Source of the DNA: a virus | Direction: 5' to 3' (one strand) | IMG/VR virus record: IMGVR_UViG_3300045988_033553 | Coordinates: 1-59,936 of that record | Length of the DNA stretch: 59,936 bases | Shown: in pieces, positions 6,013 to 56,042 of the stretch | Position numbering within the stretch: position 1 is the stretch's first letter | How the letters are laid out: every line of letters begins with the position of its first letter | Notes under the pieces: model-generated | What the model was told of the DNA's origin: nothing | What the model saw: the letters and a program-made list of their open reading frames with translations, nothing else | Databases searched by the model: none | Made by a program: the position numbers and the translations under genes

Positions 6013-6824
6013 CTGTTCTCACCTCGCTTTCGTTTCTCAACTTGACGAATCCAGTAATCGCAATCCTCTTTCAGCCAGTCTCCGTATTTTGGTATGTAGC
6101 GATAATTCGTATCATCTGGATTCTTCTCTATATAGTCAGTAACATATGCCACTGTAGCCTCATATATCAGCTTTGCAACGGCTTTTCTGTTCGGTTCGAT
6201 AACTTCTAAAAGCTTGTCCATCCATGCTACCTTGGCAGACGTTAACGACGTTTTCTTTGGATATGCATTGATCGTGTATTCCCATCCCCATTCCGCGTCA
6301 AAGTCCAAATCAGATGCAGGCACGCTTTCTTTTGTATTTTCTTTCTCTATCTCTATATCTGTATCTATATCTTTCTCTATATCTATCTCTACATTGCAAT
6401 TTTGTTGCAAAATGTTGCACTCCGTTGCTCCACTGTTGCATTGCAACACTTTTTGTGCATTTTCCCTAGATTTACGACTTCTACGAGTGCTTGCCGTCTC
6501 GCTTCCTAGGTTATCTTGCACAAATGGCAACTTGTACTCAATGGAATCTGATGTTTCAAGCAATCCGCAGGAAAGAAGATACTGAATCGTTACTTGAACA
6601 TTGATTTCGTCCTCGTCAATATCAAGGGCAATCTCTTTGTAAAATTCATCTTCCAAGCCGGAATACTCTAAGTAGCCGCCCTTTTTCAACGACAACAACT
6701 GCATCTTAAGGTATATGATCGTATATGTATCGCCACCAGCCATCTTTCGGAGTTTTTTGATTCGTTTGCTATCAAAGAAATCATCCATCAGTTTAAGCCA
6801 GTAATACCGCTTATTCTCCGCCAT
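6009..6824 (-). CDS. phage replisome organizer (N-terminal replisome-organizer domain)
   Basis: MAENKRYYWLKLMDDFFDSKRIKKLRKMAGGDTYTIIYLKMQLLSLK matches the phage_rep_org_N pattern; start trimmed to Met26; coupled to dnaB. Confidence 0.75.
   Translation of the reverse strand: MAENKRYYWLKLMDDFFDSKRIKKLRKMAGGDTYTIIYLKMQLLSLKKGGYLEYSGLEDEFYKEIALDIDEDEINVQVTIQYLLSCGLLETSDSIEYKLPFVQDNLGSETASTRRSRKSRENAQKVLQCNSGATECNILQQNCNVEIDIEKDIDTDIEIEKENTKESVPASDLDFDAEWGWEYTINAYPKKTSLTSAKVAWMDKLLEVIEPNRKAVAKLIYEATVAYVTDYIEKNPDDTNYRYIPKYGDWLKEDCDYWIRQVEKRKRGENS
6394..6446. repeat. Iteron cluster: 6 TTGCA(A) motifs with 10-11 bp phasing, inside the replisome-organizer gene (candidate ori)
   Basis: TTGCA starts at 6394, 6405, 6415, (TTGCT at 6425), 6436 and 6441; preceded by tctatatct-type repeats at 6340-6390. 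Confidence 0.6.
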
Positions 6825-7566: not shown

Positions 7567-7872
7567 CTATTTCAGTTTTTCAAGATGCGCAATGTTTTCC
7601 TGTGCACGGTCGAGATTTCTTTTTGCAGAATCCGCACGTCTCTTTTCTCTTGAAATGAACGCTTCAATCGCCGCATTCCTGCTTTCTTCCAAGAATACGA
7701 TTGTATTAGAATGTTCAATAAGATTGCCAATGCTCTCTTTATTAATTCTCATACCCTTATATATACAACCGGTTCCACGTTCTAAGGCGGTATATGTCTT
7801 AGAGCATTCCTTTGCTTCAAATGCTTTTTCTTCCAGCTTTTCACCGCAGAAAAAATAACTGTATAATTTCAT
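7567..7872 (-). CDS. hypothetical protein
   Basis: Start set at MKLYSYFF, preceded by AAAGGAGAAAAA. Confidence 0.5.
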   Translation of the reverse strand: MKLYSYFFCGEKLEEKAFEAKECSKTYTALERGTGCIYKGMRINKESIGNLIEHSNTIVFLEESRNAAIEAFISREKRRADSAKRNLDRAQENIAHLEKLK

Positions 7873-42344: not shown

Positions 42345-42367
42345 ACGCCAGATTTTTTTCTAGCAAA

Positions 42368-42449
42368 CGCCGTACACAGGATTTGAACCTGCAAGCCTTT
42401 TACAGCCAACGGTTTTCAAGACCGCTCCCTCACCACCCGGACATACGGC
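42368..42449 (-). tRNA. tRNA-Ser (anticodon UGA)
   Basis: Hand fold: acceptor GCCGTAT/GTACGGC, anticodon arm GCGGT-CTTGAAA-ACCGT, long variable arm, T arm GCAGG-TTCAAAT-CCTGT. Confidence 0.75.
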
Positions 42450-42453
42450 ATAG

Positions 42454-42539
42454 CGCAGTGTGCAGGATTCGAACCTACAAAGCGAATAAACGCCCGACCG
42501 GCTAGCAACCGGCTCCAATTCCAATTATGGGAACACTGC
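42454..42539 (-). tRNA. tRNA-Ser (anticodon GCU)
   Basis: Acceptor GCAGTGT/ACACTGC, anticodon arm GCCGG-TTGCTAG-CCGGT, long variable arm, T loop TTCGAAT. Confidence 0.75.
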
Positions 42540-42629
42540 ATCTTGATGGTGCGATTTCTTAAACAACCCATCCATTACAACTGTCTACCACGCACCTGCC
42601 AAACAGTATTTTTAGGGAGTTGAGTGAAA

Positions 42630-42719
42630 TAGGGAAGAGAGGAATCGAACCTCTATTGTTTACCACTTGGAAACTGATTTACAGTCAGCCGCAACACCGC
42701 CAATCGTTGCCGCTTCCCC
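42630..42719 (-). tRNA. tRNA-Tyr (anticodon GUA)
   Basis: Acceptor GGGGAAG/CTTCCCT, D arm GCAA...TTGC, anticodon arm GCTGA-CTGTAAA-TCAGT, long variable arm, T arm AGAGG-TTCGATT-CCTCT. Confidence 0.75.
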
Positions 42720-42796
42720 AAAATGCGCGGACACCTCACTCCATATCTCTGTACGCGACCGCGCTACGCATACAGTATCAGATCAGCTTGGCACCA

Positions 42797-42883
42797 TCGG
42801 AACGGAAGGATTCGAACCTTCAATCCGGCTCTCGTTGTTGTTTTCCGTGTACACGCCACTTTTACCAATTAAGCTACGTTCCG
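42797..42883 (-). ncRNA. tRNA-Pro-like element A without a recognisable anticodon arm
   Basis: Acceptor CGGAACG/CGTTCCG plus A73; TA-GCTT-AATTGGTAA-AAGT D arm; T arm GAAGG-TTCGAAT-CCTTC. The 35 nt between them (GGCGTGTACACGGAAAACAACAACGAGAGCCGGATT) give no 5-bp/7-nt arm. Confidence 0.5.
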
Positions 42884-43003
42884 AAACCGCCATCAGACGG
42901 TTAGCAATAATGTTTATCGTGCCATGCGTTGCACTAGGCATACAAAATGCCGATTACATCCAAACCATAGAGCGCATGCAAGCAAACAGCATAATTTGAC
43001 CGC

Positions 43004-43146
43004 TTAGACAGGCAAGGATTCGAACCTTGCATTATCGGCTTCAGAAAAGGTGTGGTTGCTGACTACGGATGATCGCCCGTCTGCCACTTGGCAACACTCT
43101 TACCGATAGGTTTCTTTACCTGCAATACCCATTCTGCCACTGCCTA
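43004..43146 (-). ncRNA. 143-nt tRNA-shaped element B with a large internal insertion
   Basis: Acceptor TAGGCAG/CTGTCTA (one G-U); D arm GCAG-AATGGGTA-TTGC; T arm GCAAGG-TTCGAAT-CCTTGC; internal 64-nt domain closed by TATCGG/CCGATA. Confidence 0.5.
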
Positions 43147-43411
43147 ACTATATGGGGGAATTATATTTTTGACAGCTCAGGCACCGTGGGATAGATGCCC
43201 GAACTATCAAGTCTGACTGCTATATGGATTGCTTGTCAGCAAATTACGGAACGATCATCATTCATCACCATATAGTCTTACGCCTAATGCCGCGCTCCGC
43301 GGCAAATACCACCGGACGGTCTCGCACCGCCCTTAACAGAATCGTCCTAGTGGCGAAAGGAGAAATACGAACTTTTCGTATTCCGAGATAAGCTTTAAAC
43401 CTATCTCTCAA
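43147..43411 (-). ncRNA. ~265-nt structured, ORF-free spacer (candidate ncRNA domain)
   Basis: Hairpins at 43385-43407, 43364-43382, 43289-43303 and 43229-43242; 8-bp long-range pair CTATATGG/CCATATAG (43220-43227 / 43268-43275). Confidence 0.35.
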
Positions 43412-43500
43412 TCGGAACGGCAGGACTTGAACCTGCGGCTATCAATTCATTAGAGCATGGAAGAATGAAAAGATTGCTCTTTCCTCTGAGCTACGTTCCG
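43412..43500 (-). ncRNA. tRNA-Pro-like element C with an 11-position anticodon helix and a 12-nt loop
   Basis: Same acceptor CGGAACG/CGTTCCG plus A73 as element A; D arm GCTC-AGAGGAAA-GAGC; T arm GCAGG-TTCAAGT-CCTGC; middle ATC-TT-TTCATT [CTTCCATGCTCT] AATGAA-TT-GAT. Confidence 0.5.
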
Positions 43501-43629
43501 TCACAGCGCGCATAGCGCGCCGCTTATGATAGTATTTTTGATCTTTTTATTTTGCCGACGTCCACTAACACCGAATAATTGCTTGCGCCGAGTTTTTTCT
43601 TGCAAAAACCGAATGCCAGTGGACTTAAG

Positions 43630-43794
43630 CTATACTGGATGCTCCGACTTCTCAGACTGGTGCTCAGCGTCACTATCCAGATCGAGCAAATCTCCGGTGC
43701 TGTCCGGTCCTTTTGATTTTGTTATATGTATTCTTTCCTCTGCACAAATGATAGGCAGCTGAAAGCAAATACCAAATATTGGACTATAAGACAT
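43630..43794 (-). CDS. small hypothetical protein, 54 aa
   Basis: Hand translation MSYSPIFGICFQLPIICAEERIHITKSKGPDSTGDLLDLDSDAEHQSEKSEHPV; RBS TGGAGGTAACAGA. Confidence 0.35.
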   Translation of the reverse strand: MSYSPIFGICFQLPIICAEERIHITKSKGPDSTGDLLDLDSDAEHQSEKSEHPV

Positions 43795-43798
43795 TCTG

Positions 43799-43954
43799 TT
43801 ACCTCCACATCAGAAACATGTTCAGCAACAGCAACATCACAAGTACACATAATGCAATTGATGTTTCTTTGTCTTTGGATTCTCTGCCAGATACAAATAG
43901 TATCAGCATAAAAATAACATCCAGCGTCGATATAATCGTTTTAATAATTACCAT
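43799..43954 (-). CDS. small hydrophobic protein, 51 aa
   Basis: ORF 43799-44014 trimmed to MVIIKTIIS..., preceded by GAGAGGAAAACAACC; two hydrophobic helices. Confidence 0.4.
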   Translation of the reverse strand: MVIIKTIISTLDVIFMLILFVSGRESKDKETSIALCVLVMLLLLNMFLMWR

Positions 43955-43974
43955 GGTTGTTTTCCTCTCACAAG

Positions 43975-44046
43975 TTTCTTTAGCAGGATTCGAACCTGCG
44001 AATACTGGAATCAAAATCCAGTGCCTTACCGCTTGGCGATAGCGCT
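43975..44046 (-). pseudogene. tRNA-Gln(UUG)-like with a non-complementary acceptor stem
   Basis: TC-GCCAAGCGGTAAGGC-A-CTGGA-TTTTGAT-TCCAG-ATTC-GCAGG-TTCGAAT-CCTGC is canonical Gln, but 5' AGCGCTA versus 3' TAAAGAA pair at only 3 of 7 positions. Confidence 0.5.
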
Positions 44047-45445: not shown

Positions 45446-45682
45446 ATTCTATCATTTTCTTGTCAAGGTATATTTTAAAATTAAATTTTAAGCCTGTATA
45501 TTATATATATTATTTATATAAATATACTGCCTTATTTATAATATATATTTTTAATATTACAAGAGAGAATATAATCTTTCTCTAACTCTAGTGTCTATAT
45601 CTACGTTGCAAAAATGTTGCAATTTGTTGCAAGAGTGTTGCAACGCAACAAAACTAATACTATTCTATCATTTTACCTTGTC
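45446..45682. promoter_or_regulatory. ori-like region: >80% AT tract, then 4 phased TTGCA(A) iterons, bracketed by a ~20-bp direct repeat
   Basis: TTGCA starts at 45606, 45617, 45627 and 45638 (11/10/11 bp). ATTCTATCATTTT..CTTGTC at 45446-45464 and 45662-45682. tctatatctacgttgca mirrors 6381-6399. Confidence 0.55.
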
Positions 45683-45773: not shown

Positions 45774-46283
45774 TCAAAATTTTTTAACCAACGCCACCAG
45801 ATATTCCTTTTTCAAGAAAAACCTGTTTATTTTATCCGGTGCATCGTGATTTTCTTTTATGAAATTTTCAGCGGCTTTTCTTACCGCTGCCGCATCCGCC
45901 TTATTAATATAAAGCCCTAAATGATGATTTTTACCGGAAAATTTAATCTGTGCACACCATTTGTCACTCTTTTTATAATAATAAACGCCCTTTATACCGG
46001 ATGAATTGTTTTTATTATCCGGGGCGTTGTATGAATTTAAGCAACTACCTTTTTCGTGTACAAGTTTATCCCTTGCGATGCTGATCGACTCCGCGGCGCG
46101 TTCACGCTTGAGACAACCGCATGACTGCACATAACCGCCAGTTAAACGTGACGTGATATAAAAACATTCATTGCCACAAGAACAGGCGCACCGCCATAAT
46201 GTGCGCCCGTTCTTGTCCTTACCGGCTTTTTCAACAACCTTAAGACGCCCTGTTTCAAACCCTTTCAAATCAACCTTTTTCAT
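45774..46283 (-). CDS. AP2-domain DNA-binding protein with an N-terminal Cys cluster
   Basis: GIKGVYYYKKSDKWCAQIKFSGKNHHLGLYINKADAAAVRKAAE is a typical AP2/integrase DNA-binding domain. Confidence 0.7.
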   Translation of the reverse strand: MKKVDLKGFETGRLKVVEKAGKDKNGRTLWRCACSCGNECFYITSRLTGGYVQSCGCLKRERAAESISIARDKLVHEKGSCLNSYNAPDNKNNSSGIKGVYYYKKSDKWCAQIKFSGKNHHLGLYINKADAAAVRKAAENFIKENHDAPDKINRFFLKKEYLVALVKKF

Positions 46284-46286
46284 TTT

Positions 46287-46631
46287 TTATCTCTCATTTT
46301 CAAGACGTGCCGCAATGTATTCCAGCACTTCTTTCTTTATATCCGCCCACTCTTTACCGTCGATATAAATATACTTATCGCAGCTCTCCCCGGAACCCGT
46401 CGGGGAATGATCTGAAATTCTCAGATCGAAGCTGTCAAGATAATCGCCGTTTTCGTTCTGTATCTCGACGTTGATATAATTACTCATGCCGTAACATCTG
46501 GATGATTCATGATAACATGAGACGTTTTTAAACTTTCTTTCAATCTGTCCCGGCAATGCCTCACATCTTTTTTCAAGGTATGATCTACATGTCTGGTATC
46601 TGTTTTTTAACGTATCAGTGTCAAATCTCAT
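46287..46631 (-). CDS. hypothetical protein, 114 aa
   Basis: Intact ORF. Confidence 0.5.
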   Translation of the reverse strand: MRFDTDTLKNRYQTCRSYLEKRCEALPGQIERKFKNVSCYHESSRCYGMSNYINVEIQNENGDYLDSFDLRISDHSPTGSGESCDKYIYIDGKEWADIKKEVLEYIAARLENER

Positions 46632-46690
46632 ATCCGTTCCCTCCTGTGTACTGGTTCATTGCCTTTCGACAAGATTATAATACACCGTCT

Positions 46691-47098
46691 ATAATGTAAT
46701 GTCAATATATTTTTACATTATTTTTAAAGTATTTATTTTTCTGCATTTTCCACATATTTTATAATGTTTCCAGGCTGCACATCCAGTAGAGCACAGATTT
46801 TTTCTAATGCAATTATTCCGACCATCTCGCCGCGCCTTAATGACTGAATCGCGTTTTCTCCAAGCAGCTTTTCTTTTCTTAGACGCGTTGTATTATAACC
46901 GCTTTCCTTTAATGTCTCTAGCACATCTATTTTATAAGTAAGCACAGTTTAACACCTCTCTTTCATATAAAACAGTATACATTATTTTAAAATTGCTTTC
47001 AAGTATGTTTACATTATAAATAATGCACAAAAATCATTCTTTGTTTATACATTATTTTTGGTGTATTTGTGTATTGCAATTACACCGTTTATAATGTA
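46691..47098. promoter_or_regulatory. Array of six copies of the 8-mer TACATTAT / ATAATGTA flanking the 70-aa HTH gene
   Basis: ATAATGTA at 46691 and 47091; TACATTAT at 46714, 46978, 47010 and 47048. A 17-bp repeat ACACCGT(C/T)TATAATGTA occurs at 46683 and 47082. Confidence 0.6.
46733..46945 (-). CDS. XRE/Cro-type HTH DNA-binding protein, 70 aa
   Basis: NTTRLRKEKLLGENAIQSLRRGEMVGIIALEKICALLDVQPGNIIKY is HTH-like. Confidence 0.6.
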   Translation of the reverse strand: MLTYKIDVLETLKESGYNTTRLRKEKLLGENAIQSLRRGEMVGIIALEKICALLDVQPGNIIKYVENAEK

Positions 47099-47148
47099 TT
47101 ATAATCTCAACAGGAAAGCAAAAAACACAAAAACAGGAGGGAACGATC

Positions 47149-47301
47149 ATGAAAGTTAAAATTAAAATTGAGGGAAAGATAAATGATACTTACACTTTTC
47201 AGCAACCAGAAGAGGGAAATATCCTTGACGAGCTGAAGGCGATCATCGAAGAAATGAAAGCCGGAAGAATTGATAAAGTAGAAATTGAGAGGGAGGTGTA
47301 A
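47149..47301 (+). CDS. small acidic hypothetical protein, 50 aa
   Basis: Hand translation MKVKIKIEGKINDTYTFQQPEEGNILDELKAIIEEMKAGRIDKVEIEREV; RBS AGGAGGG. Confidence 0.45.
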   Translation: MKVKIKIEGKINDTYTFQQPEEGNILDELKAIIEEMKAGRIDKVEIEREV

Positions 47302-47303
47302 AC

Positions 47304-47504
47304 ATGAGAGGAACAGGATTATTTATTAATTGGGAATCAGGAAATAAAAACAGTAATGCGATTCAGGAATTTGAAAAAAACGGCATCAACTGGGAATATA
47401 ACCACTTTGGAACACTTACAGCCGACTTTTACGGTATCGGGATTTTTGAAAAGGTCGATTTTGAACATATCCAAGGCGATGTGTTTGAAATCTGCATAGC
47501 ATAG
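47304..47504 (+). CDS. hypothetical protein, 66 aa
   Basis: ATG 2 nt after the previous stop; GGGAGGTG RBS. Confidence 0.5.
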   Translation: MRGTGLFINWESGNKNSNAIQEFEKNGINWEYNHFGTLTADFYGIGIFEKVDFEHIQGDVFEICIA

Positions 47505-47582
47505 CCGAAACGCTCCGATCTGGAGCGTCAGCCGCGGGATGGTCGCCGTGGCTCTGATGATGGCAGACCAGAAAGGGAAAAT

Positions 47583-47900
47583 ATGAGAACATACGAGCAG
47601 GATTTGAAAGAGCTTAATATTTCAGCAGAAGAATTTGATAACATAATTTCACACATTTACGATAAAACAGCCGATGAAATGGCGGTACTTGCTAAGGCGA
47701 TTAAAAGCGGCGCGGCTGTTCTCCCGACTGTAAAAAGAGCATTTGAGCGCGTTCTTGCAATTAGACAGGCAGAAAGACAGGAAGCATATAACATTTATTA
47801 TAACGATTTAAATACTATGTGTCATAGCTGTAAAAAATGCGGTATAAGTTGTAACGGTACAATTTGTAAAGCTTGGACTGGTTGCGCAATGAAAAATTAA
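47583..47900 (+). CDS. hypothetical protein, 105 aa, with a C-terminal Cys cluster
   Basis: RBS AAAGGGAAAAT; CHSCKKCGISCNGTICKAWTGC. Confidence 0.5.
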   Translation: MRTYEQDLKELNISAEEFDNIISHIYDKTADEMAVLAKAIKSGAAVLPTVKRAFERVLAIRQAERQEAYNIYYNDLNTMCHSCKKCGISCNGTICKAWTGCAMKN

Positions 47901-47989
47901 GTCGAAACGGCGGAAGCTGCCGCCGTCTGCAGGAACTGCCCCACCTGCACCGATGAGACAGGGCACACAATGAAAGGATGGTTGATCGT

Positions 47990-48160
47990 ATGAATAAATT
48001 AGAAGAAGCTGAGAAAGCATTTTTGAAAGTTAGGAATTATTTTTTAGAAACTCGAGAAGATTTCGCGCTGGCGAAGGCATATAGCAAGCCATGGAAGTGG
48101 TACAGAGAACACACAACAGACGAAGCTGTCGAGATTTTAAGAGCGGAAGCAAACGCATAG
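47990..48160 (+). CDS. hypothetical protein, 56 aa
   Basis: Start at MNKLEEAEK, preceded by GAAAGGATGG. Confidence 0.45.
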   Translation: MNKLEEAEKAFLKVRNYFLETREDFALAKAYSKPWKWYREHTTDEAVEILRAEANA

Positions 48161-48202
48161 GCAAGCGGCGGCGTTTACCGGGGTTCGATTCCCCGGCTTG
48201 CC
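48160..48202 (+). ncRNA. tRNA acceptor/T-arm minihelix-like element
   Basis: GGCAAGC-12 nt-CGGGG-TTCGATT-CCCCG-GCTTGCC: a 7-bp acceptor-like stem stacked on a canonical 5-7-5 T arm, with no D or anticodon arms. Confidence 0.45.
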
Positions 48203-48246
48203 TTTATCCGGATAGCCGGAAAATTTTAGAATACGGAGGATTCAAA

Positions 48247-48435
48247 ATGATTTATCAGAACGGAGCACAGACAGTTTTTCAAATCACATGCATGGGAAGT
48301 GTTTACAGTGTTAAAGATGGATTTTTTAGAAATGACGGCAACGGAACGGACTTTGAAACGTTTAACGATGCATGGGAAGTTTTCAAAACGCTTCAAGAAT
48401 GGGAACAAAGCGCCGCAGAAATAGAGGAATTTTAA
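48247..48435 (+). CDS. hypothetical protein, 62 aa
   Basis: Start at MIYQNGAQ, preceded by ACGGAGGATTCAAA. Confidence 0.5.
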   Translation: MIYQNGAQTVFQITCMGSVYSVKDGFFRNDGNGTDFETFNDAWEVFKTLQEWEQSAAEIEEF

Positions 48436-48457
48436 GCCGGAATCATCCCGGCTTTTT
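48435..48457 (+). terminator. rho-independent terminator of the plus-strand small-ORF operon
   Basis: AGCCGG-aatcatc-CCGGCT followed by TTTTT. Confidence 0.6.
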
Positions 48458-48480
48458 CCAGTGCCCGGATATATTGCAGC

Positions 48481-48509
48481 TTGACAAGGTGCGCGCTCAG
48501 TCATATAAT
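48481..48509 (+). promoter_or_regulatory. perfect consensus promoter TTGACA-17 bp-TATAAT
   Basis: Hexamers at 48481-48486 and 48504-48509, with an exact 17-bp spacer. Confidence 0.7.
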
Positions 48510-48515
48510 GACGTT

Positions 48516-48757
48516 TAAGCAGACGCGTATAAGCCATTTTAAGGCTTGTGCAAGGAAATGCAGTACTTTTATATATACACAGCACGAAACGCCTGTAAAT
48601 CGCTTTTACGACGTCGCGAACCTGTAAATGCTGCGTTTATCTTGTCCGGGCACGCTCCACCAGCAGACATCCGGGGCGCGTCTGGAGACATCACCGGCAG
48701 ACCGCCAGGGTGTGAAAATTCTGATTTCTGATTTCAAATTCGAGCCGTTTTCCAAGA
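48516..48757 (+). ncRNA. candidate phage ncRNA (GC-rich, structured, no credible ORF)
   Basis: Lies downstream of the consensus promoter. 8-bp long-range pair CAGACGCG (48520-48527) / CGCGTCTG (48677-48684), nested GAAACGC/GCGTTT helix, CCTGTAAAT x2. The only ORF lacks a usable RBS. Confidence 0.4.
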
Positions 48758-48793
48758 AGAAAAAAATTCAAAAGTTGAAAATGAGATTCCAAC
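48758..48793 (-). terminator. rho-independent terminator of the DUF4417 operon
   Basis: Minus-strand GTTGGAA-TCTCAT-TTTCAAC followed by TTTTGAATTTTTTT. Confidence 0.55.
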
Positions 48794-48854
48794 TGTGAAA
48801 AGACAATATGCACAGTAAATTATTATGCGTCATTTCGCAACTTGTGAAATTTGA

Positions 48855-49601
48855 CTAATTCGCTCTCTTCTCTTTCTCTGGCTCTCGGTCTGTTTCTGTT
48901 TTTTCTGTGATTTTGTTGTTCTTGTTCCCATTCGAAAATTCCTCATTTACTTTCTGGTTGCGTGATTTGTAATTTACAATCTTTACATCTGTGTTCAATT
49001 CATCCGGTATCTTCCCGACGATCAACACTGTATGCGGTTGTAGCCTGTCTGTCATTACTTTGAATCCCTCGCAAAACTCAATCCGAGCTGCCTTTGCCCG
49101 AACTCTTCCATTTGTGCATACAGCGATCACACCGCCTTTACTGTACCCGGCAAAGCAAAGATCATAATTGTCTTTGTCCGGGATGCCTACGGACGGTATA
49201 ACACGGATCCCGTTCAGCAGCATATAATGTGCAAGCGCATGGTTCCGGTACACGTTATATAGATTCAAAGCAAACGGCATACCACAATCGCCTGTAGCAA
49301 TACTAAAATCCGGCATACAGACCGAGTGGAAACACTTCAAGTGCTCCAGGTATTTATCCGGGTTATTCCACAGTCTTTGAAACTTTGAATCGTCAATATA
49401 AAAGTTTACATTTAATTTCTTATGCCCTTTTATCTTTTGTGAAAAGCTCTCTCCAAAATCTATGGAGTCCTCCGGCAAATAATCCAAGCTGCATGCCGGG
49501 ACAATCGGGATCTGATATTTTTCATCAAGCTCCGCTCCATAGATCATATATTCTTTCATAACATCAAAAGATGTATGACATCCATTGTACAATACTATCA
49601 C
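48855..49601 (-). CDS. DUF4417 domain protein
   Basis: FYIDDSKFQRLWNNPDKYLEHLKCFHSVCMPDFS...YNVYRNHALAHYMLLNGIRVIPSV matches my recollection of the DUF4417 pattern. Confidence 0.6.
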   Translation of the reverse strand: MIVLYNGCHTSFDVMKEYMIYGAELDEKYQIPIVPACSLDYLPEDSIDFGESFSQKIKGHKKLNVNFYIDDSKFQRLWNNPDKYLEHLKCFHSVCMPDFSIATGDCGMPFALNLYNVYRNHALAHYMLLNGIRVIPSVGIPDKDNYDLCFAGYSKGGVIAVCTNGRVRAKAARIEFCEGFKVMTDRLQPHTVLIVGKIPDELNTDVKIVNYKSRNQKVNEEFSNGNKNNKITEKTETDREPEKEKRAN

Positions 49602-49616
49602 CCCAAAAACATTTTA

Positions 49617-49766
49617 CTATTTTTCTCCTTGACAAACAACTTCTTTTGTGAAAAGCAAAGAACGTGCGGCGTAATCACTTCTGCTTAGTTCATTTATCAG
49701 CTTTTCCCTTGTCATTTCCGGGTTTGTTCTGTGAATATACCGCAGCAATTCATCTATTTTGTCCAC
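49617..49766 (-). CDS. small hypothetical protein, 49 aa (GTG start overlapping the upstream stop)
   Basis: Hand translation VDKIDELLRYIHRTNPEMTREKLINELSRSDYAARSLLFTKEVVCQGEK; RBS GGAGGG. Confidence 0.35.
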   Translation of the reverse strand: MDKIDELLRYIHRTNPEMTREKLINELSRSDYAARSLLFTKEVVCQGEK

Positions 49767-50086
49767 TATGCTGCCCTCCAATCAATGTTTGCCATCAAAT
49801 CATCCAGCAAATAAATTAAATCTGCCCCATACAGGCTTATCCAGTCCGCAAGATACTCTTCCTGCTCAATTGGCATATGAATGTTATAGGAAAAACAAAA
49901 ACAATGGCAAAGCTCATGAGCCAGTATTTTGCGCAAATAGCCATTTTTCGGTTTATCTGAAACATATATAGCCCTGTCGTTCCAATCGGTCACAGCAAGG
50001 CTGGTAGAGCCATCAGAGCGCATCAGCTTTCCGCTTGCACTGTGAACAAATTCTATTTTCCATTCAATACCATTTATTAAAAACAT
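49766..50086 (-). CDS. HExxH zinc-metalloprotease-like protein (ImmA/IrrE- or SprT-like)
   Basis: 106 aa; LAHELCHCF motif after a beta-rich N-terminus. Confidence 0.5.
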   Translation of the reverse strand: MFLINGIEWKIEFVHSASGKLMRSDGSTSLAVTDWNDRAIYVSDKPKNGYLRKILAHELCHCFCFSYNIHMPIEQEEYLADWISLYGADLIYLLDDLMANIDWRAA

Positions 50087-50159: not shown

Positions 50160-50822
50160 TTATTCTTCAATAAGTAGGTAATTGATGTATCTTGTCGCCG
50201 TATCGTTGAGGTCTCTATTAAAATCAAGCAGATCAAGAGCGTATTCCGGTGGATATCCATAACTGGCGTAATATGCCTTTTCGATTGCGCGTAAGTTGTG
50301 CAGATCCGATAATTCCACGAGAATCTTGTGATATAAAAATTTTCGAGTCCAACCAAACCGTTCTAGGATTATACTTAACTTCCAGTTGTTCTTTGAAAAC
50401 CATGTTTCCGTTTCATGTTTCCATCGAATCTCCCAGTGCTCAAACGGGTCTTTCTCCGTAATTGCAGGGTGCGGTTTTTTCAGCGCTTGTTCCATGTCGT
50501 GGAATCGTTTCACATATCGAGCAGTAAAGACAATTCCCTTTTCCCCGTTAAATTTGTTTGCGAGGAACTCACATCCCATGCGGGTTACTTTGTAGCATGG
50601 CATCTCCTTATTTTGTTCAGATAAGTATGTAGACGGTATAAAATAGTCGGTAACAACAATTTTGTTGTCTCCTAAAATTTGTATAATTCCTTTGATTTTT
50701 TTCGTTCCGTCCAGCTTTCTTAAAATCTGCCAGTGAGGCATTTCCATCATGTCCGCAATGTCGATAGTTGTCAGTGTCAGTTCTTCTTTATTTTCTGAAA
50801 TCTGAATATCGTTCATCAGCAA
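50160..50822 (-). CDS. Rha-family phage regulatory protein
   Basis: LTTIDIADMMEMPHWQILRKL...YKVTRMGCEFLANKFNGEKGIVFTARYVKRFHDME fits the Rha pattern. Confidence 0.65.
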   Translation of the reverse strand: MLMNDIQISENKEELTLTTIDIADMMEMPHWQILRKLDGTKKIKGIIQILGDNKIVVTDYFIPSTYLSEQNKEMPCYKVTRMGCEFLANKFNGEKGIVFTARYVKRFHDMEQALKKPHPAITEKDPFEHWEIRWKHETETWFSKNNWKLSIILERFGWTRKFLYHKILVELSDLHNLRAIEKAYYASYGYPPEYALDLLDFNRDLNDTATRYINYLLIEE

Positions 50823-50833
50823 ATCTCCCTCTC

Positions 50834-51076
50834 TTATACTTTCGGAACATAAGTTCCGTCCATAATGCCAATAGCAAGTTTCATGCCCTCTACGGCATAG
50901 AAGCGGTTATTGTCAGTAGTACAGTCAATAAGAAGTTCAAGCAATTCATCATAAACGCTTTCGCTCACAATTCCCTTAAGTCTCTCCATGAGCGGCTCAA
51001 AAAATTCGCGCCATTTCCCACCCTGTTCCTCATCTGCAATTTGACTTGCGTATACTATTTCTAAAAATTTGTTCAT
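50834..51076 (-). CDS. hypothetical protein, 80 aa
   Basis: Intact ORF. Confidence 0.5.
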   Translation of the reverse strand: MNKFLEIVYASQIADEEQGGKWREFFEPLMERLKGIVSESVYDELLELLIDCTTDNNRFYAVEGMKLAIGIMDGTYVPKV

Positions 51077-51199
51077 TATCTTTCACTGCCTTTCTTTTCA
51101 AAAAATGTTTGATTCCTCCGAAAGAAAGTGATATGATTGATTTATCAATTCATTTCGGATTGGTGTCAGAGTAGTCAGTTACCGCCAAGTAATGCTTGA

Positions 51200-51373
51200 C
51201 TACTCTTTTTCTTTTTCCAAAAGAAGATGAATTCCTCGTCTTATAGCTTCGCCTTTAGTAAGATTGTATTTTTTACAATACAATCTCAATTTTAATTCAG
51301 TTTCTTTATCAAGACGAATGCTGAACCTGTTTGACTTTGGGTTATCAACTTTTGGACGACCTGCTGGTGACAT
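51200..51373 (-). CDS. ribbon-helix-helix (CopG-like) protein, 57 aa
   Basis: Hand translation MSPAGRPKVDNPKSNRFSIRLDKETELKLRLYCKKYNLTKGEAIRRGIHLLLEKEKE is a typical RHH. Confidence 0.6.
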   Translation of the reverse strand: MSPAGRPKVDNPKSNRFSIRLDKETELKLRLYCKKYNLTKGEAIRRGIHLLLEKEKE

Positions 51374-51390
51374 TGAATCACTTCCTTTCT

Positions 51391-51431
51391 TGTCACACCT
51401 TTATTATATTTATGTCACACCAAAAAGTCAA
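51391..51431 (-). promoter_or_regulatory. promoter TTGACT-17-TATAAT with two GGTGTGACA direct repeats bracketing the -10
   Basis: Plus-strand attata at 51403-51408 and agtcaa at 51426-51431; tgtcacacc at 51391-51399 and 51413-51421. Confidence 0.6.
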
Positions 51432-51529
51432 TATCTTTTTTCAAAAAATTTCCCTCAAAAATCAACACCCATATTTTGGGAGCAGTACATTCAAATCCAC
51501 AAATCACTAGCTGATATTCAGTTGTCAAT

Positions 51530-54513: not shown

Positions 54514-54631
54514 CCCTCCCTTTGATTATATTTTTGCATAAAAAAAGGCGGCAAAACCGTCACGATTCCGACAGTTTGCCGTCAAAAAATACAACAAAAA
54601 AAGAACGCATTAAGCGTCCATACATCCGTTC

Positions 54632-54840
54632 GTGTTACCTTTAGTGTTACCTTTGATTTTGACCTTTAGAAAAGACACCATTCAAAAACTCCTTTCTTTC
54701 AGTAAAATCAAGGCTTCACAAGGTTTTCTTAAATAAAAATAAAGTAGCGGAAGGGAGATTCGAACTCGGTATCAATTCTCTCAAACCCGCATAAATACTG
54801 AATTTCTTTATCTCCAAAGGTGTTACCTCGTGTTACCTTT
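54632..54840. mobile_element. attP region: tRNA 3'-end core flanked by four GTGTTACCT(TT) arm-type repeats
   Basis: Repeats at 54632-54642, 54644-54654, 54820-54828 and 54830-54840. The core 54744-54767 reads on the minus strand GAGTTCGAATCTCCCTTCCGCTAC (T loop, T stem 3' strand, acceptor 3' strand). Confidence 0.6.
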
Positions 54841-56042
54841 TACATTGATAATGCTTTTGCAATATATTCCTGCATTTCACTCTCTGTCTTGTTATTAAAA
54901 TAGTAATGATCGAGAGTTGTTCTGATATCTGTATGCCCCATTTGTGTTTTTATTACCGATTCTGGAACATTTCCATCTATCAACTTTGTTGCATATGTCT
55001 TTCTTGCCTTGTGAATTGAACGTTCACCAATTCCTATTCTATCACATATCACATATAGCCGCCTTGTAAATGCCTGACCTTTTATTCGTTTACCGTTTTT
55101 CATAAAAATATATTGCCCAAATGGATTGAGCATTTTTATTTTTCTCATAAGTTCTTTGGTATCTGCGGTAATTATAACATCTCTAAACCCGGCATCACTT
55201 TTAGGAAAATTTTGAACATCAAATACATATTTGCCATTATCATCTCTATATCTTATTTCTGTCTTTGATATATGTATCTTATTTTCTCCGACATCAGACC
55301 ATGAGAGGGTAGATATTTCCCCAACTCTCAATCCTGTTTTAAATGCCAAAATAATGCCAAGTTCTATCAATGTAGGCTCATCTTCCATTACAAATCGTTC
55401 AATTAAAAGTTCCTCATCCTTAGAAAATACCAATTCGCAGTCTGACTTATGGTTCTTTTTAAATGACTTTTCCGAAATTTCCAAATCACCCATAAAACTG
55501 GTTATGCTCAGGCTGGTATAATGTTTTTTCTTTGCATATTTGAAAATTCCGTTAATCAATATCCGCATATCAGAATAAGCTTTTTGCGTAAGTTCCAGTT
55601 TTGAAATAGCTGTTTTTATGAATGATTCCAATATTTCTTCATCAATGTACCGGATTTTTCTATTTGCAATCGGCAAATACTTATTTTCAAAAAATCTTTT
55701 AAAATTTGTCTCGTACTTGTCCTTTGTCTGTCTTGTTATTTCACCATATTCAAGTTTTTCAGAAATCCAATTAGAATATACTTGAATAACTGTAGGTTCA
55801 TCCTCCTTAGCTTTATAGAACTTTACTATTTCATCTTCAATTGCTTTTTCAGATGTTCTCTTTACAAGTCTCTTTCCTCTCTTATTATCTTCATCTGGCA
55901 AATATGTGTAAAACTTTCCATCTTTTCCTTGCCAAATGCTGTAAGTGTGTTTTTCAATAAATTTTTTCCTTTCGTTCATTTCAATTTTTTTCTGAATGGT
56001 GTCTATGTTGATAATACCATTTTCGATGGCAATATTCAACAA
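54840..56042 (-). CDS. int: tyrosine recombinase / phage integrase
   Basis: 400 aa. GLRVGEI (Arg I), HKARKTYAT (His-x-x-Arg), GHTDIRTTLDHYY (His/Tyr nucleophile region). Confidence 0.9.
   Translation of the reverse strand: MLNIAIENGIINIDTIQKKIEMNERKKFIEKHTYSIWQGKDGKFYTYLPDEDNKRGKRLVKRTSEKAIEDEIVKFYKAKEDEPTVIQVYSNWISEKLEYGEITRQTKDKYETNFKRFFENKYLPIANRKIRYIDEEILESFIKTAISKLELTQKAYSDMRILINGIFKYAKKKHYTSLSITSFMGDLEISEKSFKKNHKSDCELVFSKDEELLIERFVMEDEPTLIELGIILAFKTGLRVGEISTLSWSDVGENKIHISKTEIRYRDDNGKYVFDVQNFPKSDAGFRDVIITADTKELMRKIKMLNPFGQYIFMKNGKRIKGQAFTRRLYVICDRIGIGERSIHKARKTYATKLIDGNVPESVIKTQMGHTDIRTTLDHYYFNNKTESEMQEYIAKALSM

What the first reader, a model, noticed from the sequence alone, without database searches (positions are those of the whole stretch)
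48481..48793. Orphan perfect promoter (TTGACA-17-TATAAT) firing into ~240 nt of GC-rich, self-complementary, non-coding sequence
- The best promoter match I noticed in the window has no credible gene behind it.
- The only ORF there (48546-48731) has no usable RBS and an odd composition.
- The predicted 5' end (about 48516) is immediately followed by CAGACGCG (48520-48527).
- That octamer pairs perfectly with CGCGTCTG (48677-48684) ~150 nt downstream.
- Inside this span lie a GAAACGC...GCGTTT helix, a GTAAA-TCGCT-TTTAC hairpin, two CCTGTAAAT repeats 29 nt apart (48592, 48621) and a GACGTC palindrome.
- The GC content is well above the genome average.
- The transcript runs convergently into the terminator and 3' end of the DUF4417 operon.
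- It is therefore a candidate phage sRNA: an antisense or interference regulator of that operon, a protein-sponge RNA, or a template RNA.
Basis: seen in the sequence. Interest (0 to 1): 0.7.

Follow-up and report, generated by a model that had tools for sequence, protein, structure and literature searches.

The report
Orphan promoter drives non-coding phage RNA
A very common temperate human-gut phage carries a short gene with a textbook promoter that makes no protein and most likely yields a fast-evolving RNA whose end overlaps, on the opposite strand, the end of a neighbouring regulatory operon; no such RNA is catalogued, its transcript has not been observed and its function is unproven.

Summary
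The promoter is real. TTGACA-17-TATAAT at 48481-48509 is the only 12/12 match in the 59.9-kb genome (0.05 expected). Its hexamers are kept in 66 distinct alleles from related phages, although those alleles carry 20 different spacers and the downstream sequence diverges.

No ORF is conserved behind it. Frames and lengths differ between alleles, indels are not multiples of three, and substitutions are mostly non-synonymous. Nothing in Rfam matches.

Overall folding is unremarkable (z = -1.4).

Three things are conserved:
- The architecture: terminator of a ribozyme-punctuated small-ORF island, then a strong promoter, then 300-420 nt of non-coding sequence convergent on the DUF4417 operon.
- A GC-rich array of CCGG hairpins (48640-48712) with invariant stems and variable loops.
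- An AU-rich tail that holds the minus-strand terminator of the DUF4417 operon, so the two transcripts should overlap at their 3' ends.

Best reading: an oop/RatA-like cis-antisense RNA of a lysogen. The mechanism is inferred, not shown. It is not an att site, origin, DGR template or retron.

The parts
48436..48456 (+). GC hairpin (GCCGG-AATCATC-CCGGC) followed by TTTTT. It is the terminator of the upstream plus-strand small-ORF island and lies 25 nt before the -35 hexamer.
   Evidence: Read directly from the sequence. It is conserved in all T1 (T1: the window's own allele family) alleles. The equivalent hairpin in L084 was flagged by the terminator scan.
48481..48509 (+). Sigma-70/sigma-A consensus promoter: TTGACA, 17-nt spacer, TATAAT.
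   Evidence: 12/12 match. It is the only such match in the window, with 0.05 expected. Among 66 distinct alleles, the -35 is TTGACA in 65 and the -10 is TATAAT in 60 and TATATT in 6, with 20 different spacers.
48516..48639 (+). Predicted 5' domain of the RNA. The start near 48516 is inferred from the -10 position. It contains a variable leader (48517-48527), the AAGCC/GGCTT hairpin, the two CCTGTAAAT repeats and the GTAAA/TTTAC hairpin.
   Evidence: A candidate leader helix, 48519-48526 with 48633-48640, is paired in 87% of cells, but shuffled controls reach 85%.
48640..48712 (+). GC-rich hairpin array (GC 0.685), a mosaic and length-variable module. Hairpin h2 spans 48670-48686 (UCCGG-N7-CUGGA, loop 48675-48681). 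Hairpin h3 spans 48694-48708 (CCGGC-N5-GCCGG, loop 48699-48703). The unit CATC(A)CCGG recurs about every 22 nt.
   Evidence: The plus strand folds better than the minus strand (-23.3 kcal/mol, z = -2.9, against -17.3, z = -0.6).
48713..48855 (+). AU-rich tail of the predicted RNA (GC 0.30). It has three TGTGAAAW motifs (48711, 48794, 48843) and phased A-tracts. Its diversity among close relatives is as low as that of the coding backbone. No plus-strand terminator is present in this genome.
48760..48799 (-). Probable intrinsic terminator of the convergent Rha-DUF4417 operon: a hairpin at 48767-48799 with G-U pairs, then U7 at 48760-48766. It lies inside the tail of the plus-strand unit.
   Evidence: The minus strand folds to -11.5 kcal/mol (z = -2.8), the plus strand to -6.2 (z = -0.8). 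In L121 a different stem (CCAGA/TCTGG) followed by T7 sits inside the RNA tail about 20 nt upstream of AAAATGAG, as the window's hairpin does; that site is flagged by the scan.
48855..49601 (-). DUF4417 gene, the last gene of the convergent operon. The operon comprises Rha-like 50160-50822, a 106-aa ORF at 49766-50086, and DUF4417.
   Evidence: Pfam PF14386, E = 6e-41. PHROG 8680, and PHROG 940 'nuclease'.

Best explanation
The locus is an independent, non-coding transcription unit of a temperate siphovirus-like gut phage, a 'moron'-type RNA gene.

A consensus sigma-A promoter sits immediately after the terminator of a ribozyme-punctuated small-ORF island. It should fire constitutively from about 48516 and make an RNA of at least 250-340 nt.

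The predicted RNA has three parts:
- a loosely structured 5' domain;
- a GC-rich array of short CCGG hairpins;
- an AU-rich tail.

The tail runs across the terminator and 3' untranslated end of the convergent Rha-DUF4417 operon. The two transcripts therefore overlap 3' end to 3' end by roughly 100 nt or more.

The likely action is cis-antisense. Duplex formation, followed by RNase III-type cleavage and/or polymerase collision, would keep this anti-repressor-type operon down, for example in the lysogen. Lambda oop RNA does this to cII mRNA, and RatA/SR4-type RNAs do it to their convergent partners in Bacillus prophages.

Shown here: the promoter and its conservation, the absence of coding, the architecture and the terminator positions.

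Inferred: that the RNA is made, where it ends, the duplex, and its effect.
For: **Promoter**
- It is unique and perfect in this genome.
- It is invariant across 66 alleles with 20 different spacers.
- It is also present in diverged phages whose DUF4417 is only about 70% identical: TTGACA-17-TATATT in L081, L084 and L121, TATAGT in L141, and TATAAT (12/12) in L156.

**No coding**
- ORFs change frame and length between alleles, from 43 to 102 aa, and are absent in the L006 type.
- 1-nt indels and a poly-A length polymorphism occur.
- Ten of 12 codon differences between the window and L001 are non-synonymous (my reading).
- Pfam and PHROGs give no hit.

**Discrete unit in relatives**
- A strong hairpin plus U-run closes the unit next to the DUF4417 trailing ORF (L121 1653-1626; L156 2325-2301).

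**Overlap**
- A DUF4417-strand terminator lies inside the RNA tail in the window and in L121 (1721-1736 plus T7).
- No plus-strand terminator lies between 48510 and 49100.

**Strand asymmetry**
- The hairpin array folds better on the plus strand.
- Position 3 of the h2 stem is G-U or A-U on the plus strand.

**Context**
- The operon partner encodes a Rha/anti-repressor-like protein.
Against: - No transcript data exist.
- The window has no recognisable terminator for the RNA, so its 3' end is unknown.
- In relatives the RNA's own terminator stops it at the end of the last ORF. Only the operon's 3' UTR would then be covered, a weak handle for regulation.
- A pure cis-antisense role does not explain why CCGG stems and CATC flanks of the non-overlapping 5' hairpin array are kept while their loops vary.
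- The RNA body is not alignable between phage types (nhmmer E > 0.01; identity no better than shuffled). Any sequence-specific function must therefore be type-specific or absent.
- The minus-strand terminator in the window has only two G-C pairs and was not flagged by the scan.
Confidence: 0.4

Rival explanations
1. The RNA acts in trans, as a regulator, decoy or sponge. Its variable hairpin loops and 5' leader would be specificity determinants, pairing by loop-loop ('kissing') contacts with RNAs of the host or of competing phages, or binding a protein. Allele diversity would then reflect diversifying selection, for example RNA-based exclusion, immunity or anti-defence.
For: - Stems of h2 and h3 are almost invariant (95% of cells paired). 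The 7-nt h2 loop has 8 different sequences in 13 alleles, and only one of its 7 columns is invariant.
- Diversity in 48550-48700 is 0.2-0.35, against about 0.04 in the adjacent gene.
- Hairpin-unit copy number varies from 2 to 5.
- The locus sits in an accessory region beside highly mosaic immunity-type segments.
Against: - No complementary site longer than 13 nt exists elsewhere in the phage genome, and the number of short matches is near the shuffle expectation.
- RNA allele type is not linked to any variant within +/-4 kb or to the neighbouring mosaic regulatory segments.
- No both-sided compensatory change was seen.
- Loop variability can equally be old, neutral divergence reshuffled by recombination.
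- Host sequences could not be searched.
Confidence: 0.2
2. The function does not depend on the RNA sequence. A very strong promoter at the junction of two convergent operons would act by transcription itself, through polymerase collision or occlusion, or through supercoiling. It would insulate the small-ORF island and the lytic switch from read-through of the Rha-DUF4417 operon. The RNA would be a by-product.
For: - Position, promoter strength and unit length are conserved across phage types, while the transcribed sequence is not.
- The unit occurs only where DUF4417 meets a convergent island. It is absent in L090, L166 and L167, where the downstream genes are co-directional.
Against: - Terminators already flank the unit on both sides in relatives, which makes an extra insulator redundant.
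- Within the window's own allele family (T1), the stems, the CATCCGG units and the GC richness of the array are maintained. This argues for constraint on the product or on the DNA.
Confidence: 0.15
3. It is a DNA element rather than an RNA gene. The direct CATC(A)CCGG repeats spaced about 22 bp apart (two helical turns), followed by an A-tract-rich, easily melted stretch and activated by a promoter, would form a protein-binding array. Candidates are an iteron-like secondary origin, a partition or regulatory site, or a recombination hot spot.
For: - The repeats have a regular spacing of about 22 nt and a variable copy number.
- Three TGTGAAAW motifs cluster within 140 nt, although the genome-wide count is as expected.
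- The tail has GC 0.30.
- In one relative (L111) the island is inverted, with the junction exactly at h3 (48690).
Against: - Better origin candidates exist: TGTTGCA iterons inside the replisome-organiser gene at 6409-6448, with a second copy at 45611-45650 (family D9; gene identity).
- attP lies next to the integrase. Host genes begin 225 nt downstream of int in six prophage contigs.
- The array folds better on the plus strand, with G-U pairs, which a DNA site would not require.
- The motif is not conserved in the other phage types.
Confidence: 0.1
4. It encodes a small protein (the 57-61-aa ORF at 48546/48558-48731, or another frame).
For: An ORF of 43-102 aa with a similar N-terminal stretch of about 30 aa is open in most alleles of the main type.
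Against: - The C-terminus changes frame between alleles, and the ORF is absent in the L006/L054/L055 type.
- Differences are spread over all three codon positions and are mostly non-synonymous.
- The Shine-Dalgarno-like AAGGA is only 1-2 nt from the ATG.
- No family hit was found.
Confidence: 0.03

Closest known systems
Lambda oop RNA (short antisense RNA convergent on cII; from my own knowledge of the system)
   Same: - It is a short non-coding RNA of a temperate phage with its own strong promoter.
- It is transcribed convergently and is complementary to the 3' end of the mRNA of a lysis-lysogeny regulator.
- The expected outcome is duplex-dependent decay of that mRNA.
   Different: - oop is 77 nt and ends at a defined terminator. 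This RNA is predicted to be at least 250-340 nt, with a long non-overlapping, hairpin-rich 5' domain.
- There is no sequence similarity, and the host is a Firmicute.
- The overlap and its effect are not demonstrated here.
Prophage-borne 3'-overlapping antitoxin RNAs of type I toxin-antitoxin systems in Bacillus (RatA/txpA, SR4/bsrG; from my own knowledge)
   Same: - The convergent transcripts have interdigitated terminators and overlap by about 100 nt at their 3' ends.
- The antisense RNA is about 200 nt or longer and has a strong promoter.
- The locus lies in a prophage accessory region of a Gram-positive host.
   Different: - No small hydrophobic toxin ORF lies opposite. The last ORF of the operon is DUF4417, and in relatives a 39-42-aa highly basic peptide follows it (my translation).
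- Toxicity is unknown.
P22 sar and P1/P7 c4 RNAs (antisense control of anti-repressor operons; from my own knowledge)
   Same: - An RNA regulator is associated with an anti-repressor (Ant/Rha-type) operon of a temperate phage.
- Alleles differ between related phages.
   Different: - sar and c4 act at the ribosome-binding region of ant or icd. This unit lies at the 3' end of the operon.
- No link was found between the RNA allele and the allele of the regulatory region.
Ribozyme-associated phage loci (hammerhead, twister, pistol clusters; Weinberg et al. 2015 as cited in PMC4604425)
   Same: - The unit abuts a small-ORF array punctuated by Hammerhead_II in the window.
- Relatives carry hammerhead, twister-P1 and Pistol in the same kind of array.
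   Different: - The unit has its own promoter and matches no ribozyme model at E <= 10.
- It contains CGAAAC...GUC but no CUGAUGA core.

Membership tests
Any Rfam 15 family | Covariance-model match at or near the gathering score | tested here: not met
   The gathering-threshold scan of the whole window gave no hit in 48460-48860. The permissive scan of 47800-49000 gave only Proteo-phage-1 at 17 bits (cut-off 42, E = 3.3). The homologous regions of six related loci gave no hit.
Sigma-70/sigma-A promoter | -35 TTGACA and -10 TATAAT separated by 17 +/- 1 nt, conserved in relatives | tested here: met
   Activity itself could not be tested here.
Cis-antisense RNA with 3' overlap (oop / RatA type) | Convergent promoters whose transcripts overlap at their 3' ends | tested here: inconclusive
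   Terminator positions predict overlap in the window and in L121. The 3' end of the window RNA is not defined, because no plus-strand terminator was found. No RNA data are available.
Type I toxin-antitoxin | Small (under 60 aa) hydrophobic toxin ORF on the opposite strand | tested here: not met
   Minus-strand ORFs in the region are not conserved in frame. The trailing ORF in relatives is highly basic, not hydrophobic.
Hammerhead ribozyme | Conserved core CUGAUGA ... GAAA with three helices | tested here: not met
   CGAAAC-stem-GUC is present at 48585-48614, but no CUGAUGA follows. No model hit was found there, although true hammerheads 1 kb upstream were detected.
DGR template repeat | A near-identical variable-repeat copy in a target gene, plus a reverse transcriptase | tested here: not met
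   No second copy of any part of 48510-48860 was found. No RT domain appeared among the 36 ORFs scanned.
Retron msr-msd | Conserved flanking inverted repeats (a1/a2) and an adjacent reverse transcriptase | tested here: not met
   The CAGACGCG/CGCGTCTG pair is not conserved (63% paired; the partner is missing in 11 of 38 alleles). There is no RT gene downstream; the next gene is DUF4417 on the other strand.
Phage attachment site (attP) | Junction with host DNA in integrated prophages | tested here: not met
   In six prophage-bearing contigs, host genes start 225 nt downstream of the integrase gene. That is about 6 kb from this locus.
Protein-coding gene | Reading frame and length conserved, with synonymous-site bias | tested here: not met

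The most novel reading that the evidence does not exclude
The locus could be a new class of phage non-coding RNA tied to ribozyme-punctuated cassette islands. Its tandem CCGG hairpins would present variable 7-nt loops as recognition modules. They would work like the loops that set incompatibility in antisense-controlled plasmids, but here they would set which related phages or host RNAs are excluded or silenced. That would make it an RNA-encoded specificity system under diversifying selection in one of the commonest human-gut prophages.
Probability: 0.12. Interest if true: 0.8.

Novelty: new member of a known kind. Interest (0 to 1): 0.5.

Why it matters
This prophage is very widespread. Its exact integrase sequence is indexed in 4,975 blocks of the assembly collection, and at least 150 near-identical IMG/VR contigs carry the neighbouring gene.

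Regulatory RNAs of gut Firmicute phages are almost unknown. This locus offers several handles:
- a cleanly delimited, promoter-defined candidate;
- a natural allelic series of 66 alleles, with hairpin copy number from 2 to 5 and swapped loops;
- a testable partner, the Rha-DUF4417 operon.

It also marks the outer boundary of a ribozyme-separated small-ORF array whose biology has been an open question since hammerhead, twister and pistol clusters were described.

If the RNA only insulates convergent operons, it is ordinary. If the variable loops carry specificity, it would be a new way for temperate phages to discriminate among relatives.

Tried and rejected
- **Known RNA family.** Rfam gave nothing.
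It is not conserved. I then tried a leader:48633-48640 helix. It is 87% paired, but allele-shuffled controls reach 85%, so covariation gives no support.
- **Unbiased search for covarying column pairs.** It was swamped by linkage among three divergent alleles and was uninformative.
- **Degenerate hammerhead.** The CUGAUGA core is missing.
- **DGR template or retron.** There is no repeat copy and no RT.
- **attP.** The true site is beside the integrase.
- **Replication origin.** Better iterons lie at 6409-6448 and 45611-45650.
- **Trans target inside the phage genome.** The longest exact complement is 13 nt, and match counts are near shuffle levels.
- **Immunity-type co-variation.** RNA allele type shows no association with SNPs within +/-4 kb (maximum mutual information 0.3 bit) or with alleles of the mosaic RHH/Rha-N and HTH regions.
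- **Known defence system nearby.** PADLOC found none.
- **Host identification.** Two scans of species-representative genomes found nothing relevant.
- **Homology of the RNA body across phage types.** It is not significant. My earlier impression that the tail is strongly conserved across types did not survive the shuffle control: identity is 0.61-0.73 against 0.60 for shuffled sequence.
- **Similarity to cultured phages.** Only the hammerhead matched.

Full report
**Setting**

The window is a complete phage genome of 59,861 bp; a 75-bp direct repeat at the ends reflects circular assembly. The phage is temperate and siphovirus-like:
- an SPP1-type portal, an E-type major capsid protein and a terminase;
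- a DnaD-like loader and a DnaB helicase;
- a tyrosine integrase at 54840-56042.

Almost every gene lies on the minus strand. The exception is a 1.3-kb plus-strand island (47149-48435) of five tiny ORFs with no family match. The finding lies between that island and the 3' end of a minus-strand operon. The operon encodes a Rha/anti-repressor-like protein (50160-50822), a 106-aa protein, and DUF4417 (48855-49601).

**Checking the observation**

- TTGACA-17-TATAAT at 48481-48509 is the only 12/12 promoter match in the genome, with 0.05 expected.
- GC is 0.518 for 48516-48712 and 0.685 for 48640-48712, against 0.399 for the genome. The latter is in the top 0.01% of same-size windows.
- The claim of unusual self-complementarity does not hold for the whole span. 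The MFE z-score is -1.4 on the plus strand and -0.3 on the minus strand.

**Comparative evidence in close relatives**

The DUF4417 protein retrieved 80 near-identical IMG/VR loci, and a metagenome scan retrieved 56 more. The region is present in almost all of them, but it is a diversity hot spot:
- pairwise diversity is 0.2-0.35 in 48550-48700;
- it is about 0.04 in the DUF4417 gene;
- it is 0.01-0.07 in 48700-48875.

Among 66 distinct alleles the -35 hexamer is TTGACA in 65. The -10 is TATAAT in 60 and TATATT in 6. The spacing is 17 nt in 62 and 18 nt in 4, and there are 20 different spacer sequences. Conservation of exactly the two hexamers amid variable sequence is the strongest evidence that the promoter is used.

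**Not a protein gene**

- ORFs in the region range from 43 to 102 aa, end in three different frames, and are missing in the L006/L054/L055 allele type.
- Alleles differ by 1-nt indels and by the length of a poly-A run.
- In the frame of the 61-aa ORF, 10 of 12 codon differences between the window and L001 are non-synonymous, and they fall on all three codon positions (read).
- The only Shine-Dalgarno-like sequence abuts the ATG.

**Structure**

Rfam has no match. RNAalifold gives a weak consensus of -15.4 kcal/mol, of which covariation contributes -1.4.

| Element | Cells paired | Comment |
|---|---|---|
| GTAAA/TTTAC hairpin | 97% | Never varies on both sides |
| Alternative helix 48519-48526 with 48633-48640 | 87% | Allele-shuffled controls reach 85% |

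The 5' domain therefore has at most loosely conserved pairing.

The GC-rich segment is more orderly. It is built from units CATC(A)CCGG-N7-C(C/U)GG that recur about every 22 nt. Copy number runs from 2 to 5 among alleles, and deletions and insertions have their end points at the CATCCGG repeats. Two units are present in the window:
- h2 at 48670-48686;
- h3 at 48694-48708.

Their stems are nearly invariant (95% of cells paired). The h2 loop has eight different sequences in 13 alleles, and only one of its seven columns is invariant. No both-sided compensatory change was seen, so the stems are not proven by covariation. Two observations favour an RNA read from the plus strand:
- The third pair of h2 is G-U or A-U on the plus strand, which would be a mismatch on the other strand.
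- The segment folds to -23.3 kcal/mol (z = -2.9) on the plus strand, against -17.3 (z = -0.6) on the minus strand.

**Diverged relatives**

DUF4417 homologues of 57-77% identity were placed on contigs. Wherever DUF4417 faces a convergent small-ORF island, the same architecture recurs. The order is: island terminator, a near-consensus promoter pointing at DUF4417, 300-420 nt without a conserved ORF, and then a strong hairpin plus U-run at the stop codon of the last ORF.

| Locus | Promoter | Match |
|---|---|---|
| L081, L084, L121 | TTGACA-17-TATATT | 11/12 (L084, L121; scan) |
| L141 | TTGACA-17-TATAGT | 11/12 (read by eye) |
| L156 | TTGACA-17-TATAAT | 12/12 |

Where the genes downstream of DUF4417 are co-directional (L090, L166, L167), the unit is absent.

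The transcribed sequence is not significantly similar between types (nhmmer E of 0.01 or worse in a 7.7-kb target). Global identity equals that of shuffled sequence for the centre and barely exceeds it for the tail. Predicted stability also varies: z = -4.3 and -3.6 for L121 and L141, but +0.6 and -0.9 for L084 and L081.

What is conserved, then, is a discrete promoter-to-terminator non-coding unit at this junction, not a particular fold.

**Overlap with the convergent operon**

In the window, the minus strand of 48767-48799 forms a hairpin with G-U pairs, followed by U7 at 48760-48766. It folds to -11.5 kcal/mol (z = -2.8), while the plus strand of the same stretch folds to -6.2 (z = -0.8).

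In L121 a different stem (CCAGA/TCTGG) followed by T7 occupies the corresponding stretch of the tail, about 20 nt upstream of AAAATGAG as in the window. The scan flags it as a terminator on the DUF4417 strand at 1721-1736, inside the RNA unit, which runs from about 1937 to 1618.

The DUF4417 operon therefore appears to terminate inside the tail of the plus-strand unit. The plus-strand unit ends at or beyond the operon's last stop codon. The window has no plus-strand terminator at all between 48510 and 49100. The two transcripts should overlap 3' to 3' by about 100-125 nt or more.

**Mechanism proposed**

The most economical reading is a constitutively expressed cis-antisense RNA. It would pair with the 3' end of the Rha-DUF4417 mRNA, and its transcription would collide with that operon. 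The effect would be to hold an anti-repressor-type operon down. This works like lambda oop on cII and like RatA/SR4-type RNAs in Bacillus prophages (comparisons from my own knowledge).

The GC-rich hairpin array would stabilise the RNA or carry an additional function.

Shown: the promoter, the lack of coding, the architecture and the terminator placement.

Inferred: expression, the 3' end, the duplex and its consequence.

I put 0.4 on this mechanism and about 0.8 on the weaker statement that this is a genuine non-coding transcription unit.

**Alternatives**

- **Trans-acting specificity RNA.** It would explain conserved stems with variable loops. However, I found no target in the phage genome and no linkage of RNA alleles to other variable loci.
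- **Sequence-independent insulator.** It fits the lack of sequence conservation across types, but not the constraint seen within the window's type.
- **DNA-level protein-binding array.** It is suggested by the 22-bp periodicity and the local cluster of TGTGAAAW motifs. Against it, the origin-like iterons lie elsewhere, attP is next to the integrase, and the strand asymmetry argues otherwise.
- **DGR, retron, ribozyme and small-protein readings.** Each failed a defining test (see the membership table).

**Novelty and verdict**

The locus is not in Rfam or in cultured-phage records. It fits a known kind, the phage-encoded antisense or small RNA 'moron', and I file it as a new member of that kind. 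Interest is moderate at 0.5:
- the phage is extremely common;
- the unit is sharply defined and offers a rich allelic series;
- it borders a ribozyme-separated cassette array of unexplained biology;
- its function is inferred, and an ordinary insulating or antisense role is the most likely outcome.

Noticed in passing
window 47149-48435 (+); L081:6654-7028, L084:6945-6996 and 7644-7708, L087:7092-7157: The plus-strand island is an array of tiny ORFs (50, 66, 105, 60 and 62 aa) separated by RNA-processing elements. These are Hammerhead_II at 47503-47572 (62 bits), a weaker Hammerhead_II at 47900-47967 (30 bits, below the cut-off) and a tRNA-like minihelix at 48160-48202 (7-bp acceptor stem plus a GGTTCGATTCC T-arm). 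In 80 relatives the ORF cassettes are swapped while these elements persist. Diverged relatives carry hammerhead, twister-P1 (52 bits, below the cut-off) and Pistol in the same kind of array.
   Followed up: partly
window 42367-44041 (-): A tRNA cluster. ARAGORN calls Ser(tga), Ser(gct), Tyr(gta) and Arg(acg). Rfam additionally finds tRNA-like hits at 43412-43500, with a 28-nt insert in the anticodon region, and at 43981-44041, which ARAGORN does not call.
   Followed up: no
window 6409-6448 and 45611-45650: Two 40-nt stretches share TGTTGCA-type iterons at 78% identity. One lies inside the replisome-organiser (DnaD-like) gene and the other about 20 kb away round the circular genome (39 kb in window coordinates). 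The arrangement recalls the paired origins of SPP1 (family D9).
   Followed up: no
L111 (viral-metagenome contig, 7.1 kb); junction at window 48690: In this relative the small-ORF island (window 47097-47994) is inverted relative to the DUF4417 block. The junction falls exactly at the h3 CCGG hairpin and within a truncated HTH gene. This is either a real rearrangement at a short homology or an assembly chimera.
   Followed up: partly
window about 54600-54840; L149-L154: In six large contigs the exact integrase gene is followed 225 nt downstream by bacterial genes: an MBL-fold protein, IspF, a GGDEF response regulator and CysS. attP is therefore beside int. The integrase sequence is indexed in 4,975 blocks of the collection, so this is a very common gut prophage. 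The host species was not identified.
   Followed up: partly
window 50600-51450 and 45800-47050: The segment with the Rha N-terminus, an 80-aa ORF and the RHH repressor-like gene is found in none of 80 close relatives at the DNA level. The HNH/114-aa/HTH-switch segment is shared by only 10-14 of them. These are mosaic, immunity-type regions flanking a conserved backbone.
   Followed up: partly
window 46682-46698 and 47082-47098: ACACCGTYTATAATGTA occurs twice, 400 nt apart. Each copy is embedded in a promoter-like site on the plus strand, on either side of the Cro/C1-type HTH gene. These may be duplicated operator-promoter modules of the genetic switch.
   Followed up: no
L100 and L110 (contig SCPN01000195.1, 735 kb): One bacterial contig carries two copies of the DUF4417 locus 59.5 kb apart, about one phage length. 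This suggests tandem or double lysogeny.
   Followed up: no
window 48855-48940 (-); L081:5673-5798, L084:5673-5792, L156:2172-2300: In diverged relatives DUF4417 is followed by a separate 39-42-aa, very basic ORF (for example MGTSTQRYVRKKKLTEEQRRKREENLRKLMAMAEKRKTD). In the window the corresponding stretch is fused to DUF4417 as a charged C-terminal extension.
   Followed up: no
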